NCBI GenBank assembly: GCA_965644265.1
Contig: OZ286463.1
Location: forward strand, 68,634,001-68,698,000
From: Glycera tridactyla
Lineage: Eukaryota
Length of the DNA: 64,000 nt
Direction: 5' to 3'
Positions 27,013-34,800 of the stretch are shown here, piece after piece; within the stretch, counting starts at the first letter, position 1, and every line of letters begins with the position of its first letter. The notes beneath the pieces are model-generated. The model ran no database searches. It was given only the letters and a program-made list of their open reading frames with translations, and was not told the origin of the DNA. A program made the position numbers and the translations under genes.

Positions 27013-27200
27013 TTGTATCCCATCTCATCGATGGCGACGGACATGTGTCGAGGCTGTGCAGGGCACGAATACATATTGCGGTCGTCTTCTGGTACCAGGT
27101 CGACGTCGTGGAAGACGAAGCACTGCCACCGGAATTGTTTGAGGGCCTCTACGAAGGCGATATTCATAATGCGGGCCTTGTTGAACGTATCCATTCCTTG
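27013..27200 (-). CDS. B4GALT: GT7 transferase exon (QGMDTFNKARIMNIAFVEALK...FHDVDLVPEDDRNMYSCPAQPRHMSVAIDEMGY)
   Basis: gtttacag| acceptor, AA|GTAAGT donor, 188 nt (same size as human B4GALT1 exon 3); FNKA and DVD motifs. Confidence 0.97.
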
Positions 27201-28316: not shown

Positions 28317-28769
28317 GTAGGTGGTGGACGTGGTGGTGATGATGATGATGATGATGATGATTGATTGATTGATTTGATTTGATTGATTTAACTTTATTTT
28401 AATTCGTACAAGAAACAATTACATTCAATATGAACACTTTTTCAGTACGACGAACAAGGAAAGAAAGCAAAGAAACAAAAACATTCGTAATTGGTCACAA
28501 CAAAAAATAAGAAGACATTTACATACAAATTGTTGATATTCTAGATGTCATGATTGTTGATGGTAATATGATGAAAATGTAGGATGAAATGAATGAATAA
28601 GATGCAGTGGGGATTACTCAGCAGTTACTCAATTGCATTAAAATAATCATCACACAGATCATGTAATCCTACTATATCATACATAGTATGCCTTTGTGGA
28701 TATCATCCCGTTAAATTGTTGATAGAGAAAAGTGACGTGCATACTATTGCATACTTAATTTACATATTT

Positions 28770-30217
28770 TCAATTTTTCACAGTCTTCAACCACTTTTTG
28801 AATTTATTTGGTTCAGATATTTCCACTTCTTGATGCTTATCCACAAAGGAATTCCAAGTACGAGCAGCCCTATATCTAAAGTTTCTTTCAGTGAGTCTAT
28901 ACCTCAGCTTTTCTGTAGTTAGATATGGTTTCTCTTTCGAGCGAGTTGCATGCGTATGAGTTGCCTCTGCAAGACAACATACAGGGGTCCCAGAAATATG
29001 ACCACATAAATAGTTATTAACCATGATAATTTCATGATTATCCCTTCTACTTTTTAACATCGGCATATTCAATTCATCATGCAATGCTACGGTGCTATAT
29101 CTATTTGGTACTCGAGCAACATGCCGAAGAGCCTTATTCTGTAAACGTTGTAGAGTATCATTATCTCGTTGAGACAGACAATTATAGACTACATCAGCAT
29201 AGTCAAACAAAGGCATAACTAGGGTCTTGTAGAGCATCAGACTAGTGCTTTGGCTCAGCACAGGTCTGATCCTCCCCAGGACCCCAATTCTGCCTATTGC
29301 CTTAGCTCGTATGTGTGTCACGTGATGTTTAAATGTCAAAGTGGAGTCCAGGACAACTCCAAGATACTTCATTTTATCTGTAAATTCTACTCCAGTACCA
29401 TCAATCTCTAGCTTAATATTCTCGAAAGCTTTCAACTTGCTTGGTATTCCAAATAACATTGCTTTGGTCTTACTGAGATTGAGAGACAGGCGATTATACC
29501 TCATCCACTGTGACACACATGCTAATATATTACTTAAATGCTGTTGCATTTGTTGTACATTATCACAGCTGTAACATATCGCAGTGTCATCTGCGTACAA
29601 GAATGTGCGAGTATTGATTGTGGCGCCCCTCAAGAAACAAGGCAGATCATTAATATAAATACTAAACAAAAGCGGTCCGAGTATCGATCCCTGAGGGACG
29701 CCACATCTTATAGGTAATGTGTTGGAGACATGCCCTCCAACTCTCGTCTCACACCTCCTCTCCCCTAGGTAACTACTTAGCCAGCATATCGCATTGTTAT
29801 CAAGACCGTATCTCGACAGCTTGCGAAGCAAGAGCGCATGGTCCACCGTGTCGAAAGCCTTCTTTAGGTCCAGGAACAGAGTCCCACTGACAGCACCTTG
29901 TTCAATGTTATGATAAACATTATCTAAAAATTCTAGAAGACAGCTGCCAGTGGAACGCCCGCTCCTGAACCCTGACTGCTCCCGACACAGCAAATCCATG
30001 CGCTCTATATAGCTATACAATTGTCTATGGACCAAGCGTTCTAACAACTTACTCGAAACAGATAGCAAACTAATGGGTCTATAATTATTAGTCAGAGATC
30101 TATCCCCTTCTTTATATAAAGGAATGACTGTAGCGGTTTTCCAGATTGCTGGAAATTTACCTTGGGCAATTGATAGATTGAACACTTCACACAACATTGG
30201 TGATATACATTCAACAC
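28770..30217 (-). pseudogene. LINE ORF2, reverse transcriptase and C-terminal part
   Basis: NYRPISLL, QSGFR, FLDLKKAFDTVDH, GVPQGSILGPLLF, YADDT, KYLGV, HxxxTRS and FRYRAARTWN. Joined to the upstream part by a 1-bp frameshift near 30218. Confidence 0.95.
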
Positions 30218-31768
30218 AATTTTGATCACAGTAGAAGGTAGTCCATCATTTCTGCCTGATTTGCTTACATTTAAAAGTTGGATTGCCTCAGATACATCCT
30301 CTATACATATCATTTTCAATGAAAAAGTCTCATCCAACGTATATGGAAAATGTTCCAGAGGATCACCGTCGCCTTCTCGACTTATTATTCGTGACGATAA
30401 ATCAACACCCACTTCTGCAAAATGCTTGTTCATTAGTTCAGGGATTAGAGTAGGATCAGTACAGCTTCCAATTTTCAAGATCGAAGTGTTTTCTTTCCCA
30501 TTACTCCAAAATTTACGAATCTCTCTCCAGAGTTTCTTCTTATCATCTGAATAACGGGACATTTTGTCGTCCAAGAACTCTTTTTGTAATTTTAGTTTTA
30601 GTTTCTTACAATCCTTCTGAAGATCTGTCTTAGTTTTATGTGTTTCAGGTGTTGGGTTTTTCCTATACTTGCTACTGGCAAGCTCACGCATGCGTACTAA
30701 GTCGAGAAAGTCACCGGTGATCCACTCCGGACTATCCTCATAGACCTTGTAGCGTTTGAGTGGTATACATGAATTCACAATATCAGATATTTTCTCAAAT
30801 AGGACATCAGTGCATCTATCCAGGTCACCAGTATTTCCATACAGAATATCCTTCCAATGAAGATCAGAGAGTTTTTCTCTTAATGCCTCGTAATCAGTTT
30901 TCATGTAATTCCGCAGGAAAACCCATGTGCTCCTTTTGTTTATCTTCTCCTTTTTCCTTGTCACAAAAACTAGGCAATGATCAGATAGCCCTGGATCAAT
31001 GACTCCTGACACCCTGTACATATCACAATTAGACACGAAGATATGATCTATACATGATGCTGAAACGTTTGACACCCTTGTGGGCTGGTCAATCAGTTGA
31101 TGTAGCTGATTTGATTTACAGAAACCATTGATTGTTCTTTTAGAGGGACCAATTTTATAGGTGTCTTGATTCGTATCACCAAGAATTACAATATCGCAAT
31201 TTTCATCAATAATATCCAAGATCTTGTTATCCAGTATCTCAAAGGCGTGCTTTACATTACCCTTAGGTGGTCTGTACATGATACATATGTATGTCGGTTT
31301 GGTTTCAGGGAGATGCATTTTAACCCACATCAGTTCAACGTCATTGTTGCATACACACCATTCACTCACAAGCTCGACTATTCTATCTTCACGAAAGTAA
31401 AGTACCAATCCCCCTCCTCCTCTCAAGCCAACTCCTCCATCCCGATCAAAACGAATCAATTTGTATCCCTTGATATTCAGTTCACTTGATTCTATACAAG
31501 AGTTTAAAAATGTTTCACCGAGGGCCAATATGTTGAGTTTACTCTCTTTAAGAAGAATTCGGATATCACTTAATTTTCGAACTAGACTGCGTATATTCAG
31601 AAAGCCCATACTTACGCCTTTGAGATTGGATAGATCTTTGGACAGATCAAATTTGGATAAATTATTAGTCCCAGGAATAGATGTATTTATGCTTGCATGA
31701 CCTGATTGATCATTTTCGTAATCTACTGCAGTTGTAAATGAGATGCGATGAGATGGATGAGATGACAT
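30218..31768 (-). pseudogene. LINE ORF2, apurinic-like endonuclease and linker
   Basis: NIRSL, LGETF, RFDR..GGG, YRPP, LGDTN, PTR...SCIDH and SDH; first ATG at 31768. Confidence 0.95.
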
Positions 31769-32697
31769 CAAGTGTTATTGCCAACTTAGTTGGACAAAAT
31801 CAAAATAAAAATAATATGAAAAGAACAAAAAAGCAGCAATCACTGATTGCGGGTAGGAGCACTTGTTAACAAGTTATGTATCGAGCAGATTAATAGCGTA
31901 ATGTTGTAGGGGGGGGGGTTATGCTATATGCATATATTCATAATTGTATGAGGTATGCTGCTCCACTAGACTCCATTTGAGAAGATCCCGTAGGTACGAT
32001 TGGTCCCATGTGACTTGTCGAATAGAAAAGTAGAGAACATGTTAAATGATTAAAGTCAATACTCCACTCGTTATATATAAAAAGAGGGGGGGGGGCGGGG
32101 GACAACTCAAATAAAGCATACAACTCAAATAAAGCATACGAGTTTCCAGAATTTATATAAAAAACAATACATAGGTCGTGCCAAATCTGGTTATGTACAC
32201 ATCTTCCCACAAAGTATATCTCCCTTGGGGTGAACAGGTATCCCTGCACTTCCTTCAGAGTAGACAACCTCATCGGGGAATTTGTTTACATAGATTTTCA
32301 AACTGAGGAGAGAGCATATGAGTTGTTCGGGTGTCCCCTAACTTCCTGTCTATGTCACTCTCCACAGCTTCTGAGACTCTTTGGAATTTTTAAGTTTGGT
32401 TTGTAATCATAGATTTGATCCCCTTAATGATTTCCCTGATCACACAGTGTAGACATGTTTTTAGAGTGACCTTTCCAATTGTTTTGATCATCACACATAC
32501 CTCACCATCCGTCATTCTCAGTTTCATGGATGGGACTCCTTCAATTCCTTATCGAACACCTCGCATCATTCTTAGACAATCACAAAATCTGAATCAGTTT
32601 CAATAGCAGAAACACAATACATGCAAATAATCCCTATCAGAAACATACATGTAGTCCCCTCATCCCTTAATCAAGTTTCATCTGACTCTCTGCTCTT

Positions 32698-33717
32698 TTA
32701 ACATGATTTTTTTGCCTTTGCTAGTTCAGATTGTGGGATACAGATTTCACGTAGAATTTCAGAGATTACAGATCTTTCAGCATTATCTGCCTTTCGCTTT
32801 CTGGCCCTGTTAGACCTTGGAAGGATTTCATTCAAGACCTCTTCATGCTCGCTAATCCAATGGTCCAAGGGGGCCCCAATCACTTCATATCCTAGAGCAT
32901 TATACCCTTTTATACTCAGATGGATTTTGTCCTCACTCAAATATCCAGGTATGATCTCACCATGAAGTCGGGGATCTCTCCTCTCAGCATTGGCACCAAT
33001 CTTGAAACCATGTTTGAGTGCATGTTTGTAATGCATGGTGTGGAATAACCTTTAAACAAAGATATAACGTATTGTATCATGTACCATGGAATTACATTCA
33101 TGTCGGATAAAACTGTCAATACTAATTGCCACCTGTTTAGTGGCTTCCTCCCATGTGGGTCTCCATAAGATCGGGATATGAAAAAGGTGGGCATTCGGGA
33201 AAAGACCCCTCAATAACCAAACTGCGTTTCTAATTGCTGGAAATAGGTTACATAAGAAGGTCTGTTGAAGATTTGTGAGAAGTTGTTTGCGTATACGAGG
33301 GTCTTTATGTTGTGCCTTCCATAGATTTTTATGGAATATATGCACATCATTGGACCCCAAGATTACTATTACATAATGTGGGTCAATTTTTTTATGATCC
33401 TGTCCATCAGTAGCCTTATCATCGTGCAGGTAACCTCTCTCCTTGGGATCGAATTTTTCAATAAATTCGCGATGAAATGTCTCCCATTTCCCGCCACTTA
33501 TCCCGAAAAATGTCCATTTCGACAGCAGAGTTTTAGATTTCCCTTCAGGCATCAATTTAATATTATTACCGAATCTTCGTGCATGACTTGATCCTACTAC
33601 AAGGACTTCCGGCTCTCCAATGAGATCGAGTTTATGTTGTCGACGTTCAATCGGACACATGTGAACTGGTAGCTTCATTCGCTCACTGGCTTGCCTCGAC
33701 TGTTCCCACCGGTTTTT
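32698..33717 (-). pseudogene. SGNH/GDSL-type esterase ORF of the LINE, interrupted by one in-frame TAA (33052-33054)
   Basis: Blocks VLVVGSSH, GISGG, ILGSND and DKIHLS are all present. Track ORFs 33052-33678 and 32698-33036 are in the same frame, separated by TAA plus 5 codons. Confidence 0.85.
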
Positions 33718-33952
33718 CTAGCAACACACAAATCAAACTGGTAATATACATCATGTATAATTCTGCACAACTAAGCATTATTTATCATTTATCATGTATT
33801 ATTCGTTCGGTATCAGGGTATCAATCAGACAAATCTACCGTAGGTAACATTCGTTTTACCGAGATCTATTTTTACGTGTGCGCTCACGCATTGCGATGAG
33901 TCTATTGTTTACCAATTCTTGACGAGTGTAGAGAGCTTTAATGTTGACTTAC

Positions 33953-33967
33953 CGGCATATCGCTCAT
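33953..33967 (-). CDS. Candidate 5-codon first exon (MSDMP) of the esterase ORF
   Basis: caatATG with A at -3, then a CCG|GTAAGT donor; joins in frame to the acceptor at 33718. Confidence 0.5.
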
Positions 33968-34014
33968 ATTGTCCTTTGGGAGGACGCGTACCTCATTGAC
34001 ATAACGTATTTGAT

Positions 34015-34800
34015 TCATGTCTGACTCGTTAAAGAATCAAAATTCTGAAATCTGTTCGACACGTCAACAACCGTCTGTGCAAATGGCGTTCTGTTCTTTT
34101 TGAAAAACCGTTTAGGTCGCGTAAACTCGCGTGGTTTAGAGCCGCCCTCTAGGAGATCAATTTGTTCTGCTTTTCTAGCTTTACCGCCAGATGGTGGGTT
34201 CTTAACAGATTCGTTCCCGCTGCCCCCAGAGAGGACACCTGCACTGCGATACCTAGCCAACCAATTTTCTAGGAAATCACTTTGTTTGCCTGATTTACTG
34301 GTTTTGGATCCGTCCTTGTTTCCAATATCTCCTTCCTTCGACATGTCAGTTGCCTGACTACCAGTTACCAGACTCGCAATACTAGGTTTCATATGCTCAT
34401 CTACTGATCCAACCCCTACGTTCATGGTGTGTGTGGGTTGGGACTGCATGTGAGATTTGGACATTGTTTGTGAGATTCCCTCGGCATCTTTCTGAATTGG
34501 GACAGGGGGATTTCCTTTCTGTGAGTCTCTAACTCCGCGATCCTTCCCACATATTTCATGTAGCCTGTCAAGAGAAAATAGTGGGATACGGTCCTTTTTC
34601 TTATCTTTTGCAGCATAGACCTTGCCATCTCTGGTCCAGACGCTGTCGAGGGTACCCTTTAACCTCGCTTCCTTCGCATTTCGTAGAATCACATTCTCGC
34701 GTTCAGTCAACTGTTCACGAAAGAAGATATCAGATCCTTTGACATTCACCTTGCGGATAAGGATTTCCTTTCTAATATTGCTATGAGCAAATCTCACTTT
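34015..34800 (-). pseudogene. LINE ORF1, 5'-truncated (end of RRM plus CTD, then a long disordered tail)
   Basis: VRF..SNIRKEIL..K..KGSDIFFREQLT...AKEARLKG..DSVWTRDGKVY is the typical LINE ORF1 CTD pattern. The poly-His N-terminus in the track is only the flanking (CAT)n. Confidence 0.85.

What the first reader, a model, noticed from the sequence alone, without database searches (positions are those of the whole stretch)
33718..33967. Apparent spliceosomal intron inside the retrotransposon that builds the esterase start
ATG AGC GAT ATG CCG|GTAAGT (donor at 33952) ... tttgatttgtgtgttgctAG|AAA AAC CGG TGG GAA (acceptor at 33718) defines a 235-bp phase-0 intron. The esterase frame is open exactly back to the acceptor AG, whose TAG is the upstream in-frame stop, and removing the intron gives MSDMP-KNRWEQSRQASER-MKLPVH..., a 344-aa product. 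An element copied through RNA that keeps an intron must retrotranspose the unspliced RNA while using a spliced RNA for the accessory protein, a retrovirus-like strategy that is unusual for LINEs. Together with the acceptor before ORF2, this is the best candidate for a novel system in the window.
Basis: partly seen in the sequence, partly recalled or inferred. Interest (0 to 1): 0.75.

Follow-up and report, generated by a model that had tools for sequence, protein, structure and literature searches.

The report
LINE retrotransposon that keeps an intron
This is a broken copy of a jumping-gene family that copies itself through RNA yet keeps an intron in an extra enzyme gene in nearly all copies checked; two copies elsewhere in the genome lack it exactly at the splice site, so the intron is likely cut out to make the enzyme while the uncut RNA likely serves as the template for jumping.

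Summary
The 235-nt GTAAGT…TAG intron is present as described and is conserved in a large three-gene LINE lineage (L1-like ORF1, SGNH esterase, EN-RT). A phase-0 YAG sits at the same codon in 73 of 87 copies while the intron body diverges. Among 155 copies with both ORF1 and esterase, 152 keep normal spacing. One full-length insertion lacks exactly the intron (98–99% identical to an intron-bearing sibling), one lost a GT…AG stretch ending at the same acceptor, and one has a plain deletion. That is genomic evidence of splicing; no RNA run was listed.

Its ATG (33967) occurs in 1 of 77 copies. The conserved start is the ATG at ORF1's stop (34018), giving a 22-codon exon (60 of 77). This copy is dead: 5'-truncated, premature stop in the esterase, frameshifted ORF2. 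The 'acceptor before ORF2' looks more like a conserved hairpin.

Likely mechanism: unspliced RNA is the usual template, and spliced full-length RNA makes the esterase by reinitiation after ORF1. Nine literature searches found no such LINE; Repbase was not searchable. The scan noted this family before on other DNA (e1-8617868, e1-9557680; a similar case in another genome, e1-8591544).

The parts
34015..34800 (-). 3' part of ORF1 (copy is 5'-truncated, abuts a (CAT)n run); L1-type coiled coil-RRM-CTD protein in full-length relatives; stop TGA 34017-34015
   Evidence: model of relatives' ORF1 matches human L1 ORF1p (2yko, E 9e-8)
33953..34018 (-). Exon 1 of the esterase, 22 codons; its ATG overlaps the ORF1 stop (ATGA)
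   Evidence: ATG at -66 in 60 of 77; frame stop-free in 52 of 52 cluster representatives vs 44 and 40 with stops in the other frames; codon-position identity 0.70/0.77/0.44
33718..33952 (-). 235-nt phase-0 GT-AG intron
   Evidence: 20-48% identity to the 7 nearest relatives vs 64-85% for exon 1 and 64-82% for exon 2
32698..33717 (-). Exon 2 of the SGNH/GDSL esterase (339 codons); broken in this copy by an in-frame TAA at 33054-33052
31780..31794 (-).
28770..31768 (-). ORF2, APE endonuclease + reverse transcriptase; frameshifted in this copy near 30225-30275
   Evidence: about 1000 aa in intact relatives with Exo_endo_phos and RVT_1 only
28340..28400 (-). AATAAA and (AATC/ATC)n tail running into a (CAT)n repeat: 3' end of the element
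   Evidence: (AAATC)n-like tails in L124 and L129
27014..27200 (-). Host exon of a glycosyltransferase family 7 (beta-1,4-galactosyltransferase-like) gene downstream on the same strand; the element probably lies in one of its introns
   Evidence: PF13733, E 6e-20; the upstream exon was not located

Best explanation
The stretch is an intron conserved across a three-gene LINE family (ORF1, split esterase, EN-RT) that is likely spliced by the spliceosome to join a 22-codon first exon to the esterase, while the unspliced RNA is likely the usual template for new insertions. Shown: conserved donor, acceptor and phase; a coding 22-codon exon whose ATG lies at or just after the ORF1 stop; 152 of 155 copies with normal spacing; two copies lacking sequence exactly up to the acceptor. 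Inferred: ribosomes ending ORF1 restart at that ATG. On spliced RNA they make a ~340-360-aa esterase; on unspliced RNA they hit a stop 3-66 codons into the intron, so splicing is an on/off switch for the esterase. Inferred: spliced RNA is scarce or a poor template (the junction lies mostly 62-97 nt behind the ORF1 stop, which could expose it to nonsense-mediated decay), and intron-less offspring do not found lineages. ORF2 must start some other way, likely internally at the conserved hairpin. The esterase likely acts on membrane lipids, by analogy with ZfL2-1. The window's own copy is dead.
For: Acceptor at a fixed codon, phase 0, 73 of 87; TAG and CAG alternate there, so it is not a protein constraint. 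First ATG after the ORF1 stop is in phase with the next donor-like site in 58 of 68 rows (9 of 77 rows fell outside the distance filter). ATG at -66 in 60 of 77; intron 228-1051 nt with free length mod 3; exon-1 frame unrelated to ORF1 frame, 28/25/22. L124 is 98-99% identical to L129 and lacks exactly the 409-nt GTGAGT...GCAG intron; it is a separate full-length insertion with its own flanks and tail and nests among intron-bearing copies. L278 lacks 554 nt from a GT inside ORF1 to the same acceptor. Independent ORF1-picked sample: 98 of 103 have the esterase downstream, none goes straight from ORF1 to EN. Distant relatives from another record (L292-L294) have no intron and start the esterase 1-2 nt after the upstream stop; L293 shows the full ORF1-esterase-EN-RT order. 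SGNH fold with S, G, N invariant and D, H in at least 90% of 51 sequences.
Against: No RNA evidence is in hand: splicing is inferred from genomic copies, and the exact-loss copy belongs to a distant subfamily (esterase 43% identical to the window's), not the window's own. L278's junction has a 2-nt AG repeat, so a microhomology deletion is possible, and it is out of frame. The stop-to-ATG distance is not fixed (about 20 nt upstream to 30 nt downstream in most, about 170 nt in one subfamily), which fits reinitiation less well than a strict overlap. The exon-1 frame is absent or broken in a few copies (L218, L238, L103). No branch point is conserved. How ORF2 is translated is unexplained: 44-164 ATGs lie between the donor and the ORF2 ATG. 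The intron-less relatives L292-L294 show that the layout can exist without the intron, so why it is kept here is not shown.
Confidence: 0.75

Rival explanations
1. The intron is real, but the esterase is made from its own capped, spliced subgenomic RNA started at a promoter near the end of ORF1, not by reinitiation on the full-length RNA.
For: Variable stop-to-ATG distance, up to about 170 nt; LTR-element ORF3s are typically separate spliced units (PMC5408684, passage). It would also explain why spliced RNA is rarely copied with ORF1.
Against: L124 shows a spliced RNA that began at the element's own 5' end; the ATG hugs the ORF1 stop in most copies and in the intron-less relatives.
Confidence: 0.15
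2. The intron is a passenger from a captured host gene, kept only because splicing is inefficient; it has no regulatory role.
For: Esterase genes with the same acceptor and no ORF1 or ORF2 nearby stand in tandem on C18 and could be a source; intron bodies are not conserved.
Against: Each copying round of spliced RNA loses the intron for good, yet no intron-less subfamily was seen among 59 clusters, which points to selection or template bias. The direction between array and LINE is unresolved (unrooted, unfinished tree).
Confidence: 0.07
3. One reading: a 5-codon exon from ATG 33967 supplies the start.
For: The ATG is in frame and 15 nt before the donor in this copy.
Against: Present in 1 of 77 copies; the upstream 17 codons are conserved as coding.
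Confidence: 0.01
4. No splicing: the stretch is an inter-ORF spacer and the esterase starts at a Met in exon 2 on unspliced RNA.
For: 19 of 57 cluster representatives have ATG as the first codon after the AG and 8 have one at codon 13.
Against: 12 of 57 have no Met before the catalytic serine; it does not explain the donor, the coding exon 1, or L124 and L278.
Confidence: 0.02

Closest known systems
Esterase-encoding LINEs (zebrafish ZfL2-1; vertebrate CR1/L2; RTEX). PMC3905857, PMC4120745, PMC13343379 (passages seen)
   Same: APE-RT LINE with an SGNH hydrolase keeping its catalytic residues
   Different: There the esterase is ORF1; PMC3905857 says no esterase-containing ORF1p in Repbase had an RRM. 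Here an L1-type RRM ORF1 is kept and the esterase is a separate middle gene split by an intron. Word searches of those three main texts found no splicing. Homology to the ZfL2-1 esterase was not shown (not among listed PDB hits).
Penelope-like elements. PMC8557442 (passages)
   Same: Retroelements that keep introns after retrotransposition, called highly unusual there, with significance unknown
   Different: GIY-YIG or no endonuclease and a different integration route; the characterised introns lie in the 5' UTR over the promoter. Here an ordinary APE LINE has the intron inside a coding gene.
Spliced L1 insertions (SpIREs). PMC5860796 (abstract and outline)
   Same: Spliced LINE RNA is occasionally retrotransposed and gives dead-end copies, like L124 and L278
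   Different: In L1, splicing damages the promoter or ORF1; here it is needed to build an ORF, and the sites are conserved across deep subfamilies.
Spliced messages of LTR elements: plant Ty1/copia short GAG RNA (PMC5580714, abstract) and ORF3/env (PMC5408684, passage)
   Same: Unspliced genomic RNA beside a spliced RNA for another protein
   Different: Those are LTR elements with subgenomic RNAs; here only a small intron is removed and the RNA stays full-length.
Termination-reinitiation in SART1 and L1 ORF2. PMC5972666 (passages)
   Same: Downstream ORF starts at or near the ORF1 stop (AUGA or UAAUG overlaps occur here too)
   Different: There the downstream ORF is EN-RT; here it is the esterase, and ORF2 lies 1.9-6 kb further on.

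Membership tests
APE-type non-LTR retrotransposon (LINE) | ORF2 with N-terminal APE endonuclease and RT | tested here: met
   Pfam Exo_endo_phos + RVT_1; best PDB hit L1 ORF2p
APE-type non-LTR retrotransposon (LINE) | Dispersed copies with own flanks, 5' truncation, simple-repeat 3' tail | tested here: met
   target-site duplications were not resolved
CR1 group (CR1/L2/Crack/Daphne/Kiri) | RT phylogeny with named reference elements | not testable with these tools
   No named reference set available; placement rests on recall (tandem-repeat tail, no RNase H hit)
Type IV (esterase) ORF1 LINEs | Esterase is ORF1, without RRM | tested here: not met
   ORF1 is L1-like RRM-CTD; the esterase is a separate downstream ORF
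SGNH/GDSL hydrolase | Fold and catalytic S, G, N, D-x-x-H | tested here: met
   pLDDT 92; GDSL lipases, PAF-AH, E about 5e-5; Pfam hits lie below the curated cut-off; activity untested
U2-type spliceosomal intron | G|GTnAGT donor, pyrimidine-rich YAG acceptor, frame restored on removal | tested here: met
   (the logos are partly circular; searches are not)
U2-type spliceosomal intron | Exact removal seen in a product of RNA | tested here: met
   Homologous intron only: processed copy L124; acceptor use in L278
U2-type spliceosomal intron | Junction reads in RNA; branch point | tested here: inconclusive
   No reads could be laid; no fixed branch-point position
Penelope-like elements | GIY-YIG or no endonuclease, single ORF | tested here: not met
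   APE endonuclease and three ORFs

The most novel reading that the evidence does not exclude
An ancient lineage of three-gene LINEs uses intron retention as a built-in switch: unspliced RNA is selected as the genome, spliced RNA makes a lipid esterase by reinitiation and is kept out of retrotransposition, and ORF2 starts internally at a conserved hairpin. This would be a genome-versus-message split so far known from LTR elements and retroviruses, in an element copied by target-primed reverse transcription. Distant homologues from other data sets with Gln at the acceptor position (6 of 22) suggest it reaches beyond this species.
Probability: 0.5. Interest if true: 0.87.

Novelty: new variant of a known kind. 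Interest (0 to 1): 0.77.

Why it matters
LINE copying removes introns; that is why processed pseudogenes and intron-based retrotransposition reporters work (established knowledge). A LINE lineage that has kept a required intron through deep diversification must choose unspliced RNA as its template or be selected to do so. It gives a natural system for testing how LINE proteins pick their RNA, how intron-bearing RNA is exported and escapes decay, and what retrotransposon esterases do, since here the esterase sits beside a normal ORF1 and can be switched off separately. It also means automated repeat annotation misses a gene in such families.

Tried and rejected
RNA runs: no RNA holder listed, so no reads were laid; this is no evidence either way. 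Word-index protein search with the esterase: none of 463 candidates scored; the profile search later found 123 unnamed homologues, and look-ups of 10 gave no names. RT homologue search gave unnamed hits, no clade label. ESM Atlas gave GDSL-like clusters only. Second intron or ORF1-to-ORF2 splice: none in L124, no conserved donor in the spacer, no ORF1-to-EN copy among 103 ORF1-picked loci (5 had no esterase or EN in the fetched stretch), and none of the 13 close copies of one subfamily began at the hairpin AG. Candidate intron-less copies L164, L165, L287 and L303 were a probable 5' truncation, a normal intron and two non-splice deletions. Fixed frameshift fusion of ORF1 to exon 1 rejected: relative frame is 28/25/22. 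The donor tally was too permissive (it scored L124 and L278 as having donors) and is not used; one search replaces it. The careful esterase tree did not finish; the quick tree was used. PMC10294476 and PMC2911113 (passages) held nothing on LINE introns.

Full report
Observation. The minus strand shows donor CCG|GTAAGT at 33952 and acceptor GTTGCTAG| at 33718, 235 nt apart. It lies in a LINE: the 3' part of ORF1 (34800-34015), an esterase-like frame (33717-32698) and EN-RT (31768-28770; Pfam). The copy is 5'-truncated, has an in-frame TAA at 33054-33052 in the esterase and a frameshift in ORF2, so the 344-aa product cannot come from it.

Family. The window's esterase found 150 scored matches of 3069 candidates in the 2-Gb genome. 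I fetched 87 loci of about 10 kb (7, 80 picked from the 150) and added the window. Most show ORF1, esterase and EN-RT in that order, with RT 52-84% identical to the window's. The 88 fall into 59 clusters at 80% nucleotide identity. ORF1 is about 740-970 aa in full-length copies, and its model matches human L1 ORF1p. The esterase has an SGNH fold with S, G and N invariant and D and H nearly so in 51 sequences.

Acceptor. Anchored on the GSSH motif, a phase-0 YAG precedes codon -41 in 73 of 87 copies, against 0-4 at positions -60 to -42; TAG and CAG alternate. Most of the other 14 are 5' truncations, 1-nt shifts or subfamilies with a shifted boundary, plus one exact intron loss.

Donor and true start. 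The ORF1 end was found in 77 of 88. The first ATG after it is in phase with the next donor-like site in 58 of 68 rows passing a distance filter. The exon-1 frame has no stop in 52 of 52 cluster representatives, against 44 and 40 in the other frames, and third positions diverge most (0.70/0.77/0.44 over 99 pairs). Against its 7 nearest relatives the window's exon 1 is 64-85% identical, exon 2 64-82%, the intron 20-48%. Intron length runs from 228 to about 1050 nt, with free length mod 3. In the window the ATG overlaps the ORF1 stop (ATGA, 34018-34015); in other copies it lies from about 20 nt before to 30 nt after the stop, and about 170 nt after in one subfamily.

Evidence of splicing. L124 is 98-99% identical to L129 over the whole element but lacks exactly the 409-nt GTGAGT...GCAG intron and reads as one 337-aa ORF from the ATG at -66. 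Both share the same 5' end and tail type and have different flanks. L278 lacks 554 nt from a GT inside ORF1 to the same acceptor (98.5% identical to L254); this junction is out of frame and carries a 2-nt repeat, so it is weaker. To avoid bias I drew a second sample by ORF1 (103 of 150 hits): 98 have the esterase, 5 had neither esterase nor EN in the fetched stretch, none joins ORF1 to EN. Of 183 loci, 155 held both the ORF1 motif and GSSH; 3 are short outliers (L124, L278, and L287, a deletion that keeps the acceptor) and 152 keep normal spacing. In one young subfamily 11 of 12 close copies span the intron whole and the twelfth has a plain deletion. No RNA data could be tested.

Outside this genome. 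A profile search found 123 homologues. Of 22 long enough to score, 6 have Gln at the codon before position -41, mostly after hydrophobic residues, against at most 2 at other positions; this fits a CAG acceptor but their DNA was not seen. Three loci from another record are distant relatives without the intron: the esterase ATG follows the upstream stop by 1-2 nt, and L293 has ORF1, esterase, EN and RT in order. They support the start at the ORF1 stop and show that the intron is lineage-specific; gain or loss is open.

The site before ORF2. It is a 6-bp stem with a 3-nt loop just upstream of the ORF2 ATG (0-11 nt in 48 of 55 clusters), found in 81 loci. Pairs switch together (A-T 43 / G-C 11; T-A 36 / C-G 10), above shuffles that ignore relatedness; the search pattern favoured pairing, so this is partly circular. 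Its AG is kept in 54 of 55 and follows a T-rich tract, but is AAG in 36, the phase to the ATG varies, and L124 did not use it. I read it as an RNA structure; a double role as acceptor is not excluded.

Mechanism. Shown: the split gene and rare processed copies. Inferred: reinitiation after ORF1, known for SART1 and L1 (PMC5972666, passages), gives the esterase on spliced RNA and a short peptide on unspliced RNA (stop 3-66 codons into the intron). L124 shows that spliced RNA can be full-length and copied, so retention needs either rare splicing or a bias against spliced RNA. The junction lies mostly 62-97 nt after the ORF1 stop, beyond the 50-55-nt rule for nonsense-mediated decay (recalled; not tested, and not universal in invertebrates). 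ORF2 cannot be reached by scanning (44-164 ATGs); internal initiation at the hairpin is a guess.

What is known. Esterases are described as ORF1 of CR1, L2 and RTEX (PMC3905857, PMC4120745, PMC13343379; passages). Intron retention is described for Penelope-like elements (PMC8557442, passages). L1 splicing gives dead-end copies (PMC5860796, abstract). Spliced messages are normal in LTR elements (PMC5580714, abstract; PMC5408684, passages). Nine searches (most results seen as listings only) showed no APE-type LINE with a conserved intron or a separate middle esterase gene. Repbase, subscription journals and supplements were not seen and may hold a prior annotation. The CR1-group label is recalled, not tested. 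The scan had noted this family twice in this genome and a similar case in another; my reading was formed before that look-up.

Verdict.

Noticed in passing
L088, L090, L171, L172 (G000:C18, about 95.88-95.90 Mb and 96.88-96.90 Mb): Two clusters of tandem esterase genes (4 and 3 copies seen, 4.3-4.4 kb apart where measured) with open frames and the same acceptor but no ORF1 or ORF2 hit nearby; two have a candidate 17-codon first exon about 1.2 kb upstream. One clade in the tree. Domesticated from the LINE, or its source.
   Followed up: partly
L167:4247-4864 and 5320-5961: One element carries a second, diverged esterase-like match (30% identity) between the first esterase and ORF2.
   Followed up: no
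window 31780-31794 and 81 related loci: Conserved triloop hairpin with compensatory changes just upstream of the ORF2 ATG, followed by a conserved TCATC-rich start of ORF2; candidate translation element.
   Followed up: partly
L056, L057, L060, L071, L080, L100; L064, L081, L082; L244, L248, L251, L254, L266, L284: Subfamilies with altered exon 1: 31-32 codons starting inside the ORF1 end; 25 codons; or the ATG about 170 nt after the ORF1 stop.
   Followed up: partly
L292-L294: Distant intron-less relatives from another record; L293 has ORF1, esterase, EN and RT in order, so three-gene LINEs are wider than this genome.
   Followed up: partly
window 27014-27200 (-): Glycosyltransferase family 7 exon on the same strand as the element; the element's splice sites could be used by host transcripts.
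   Followed up: no
L164, upstream of about 3600: A probably 5'-truncated copy sits behind DNA that looks by eye like an integrase of a Polinton-type element (label recalled, not tested).
   Followed up: no
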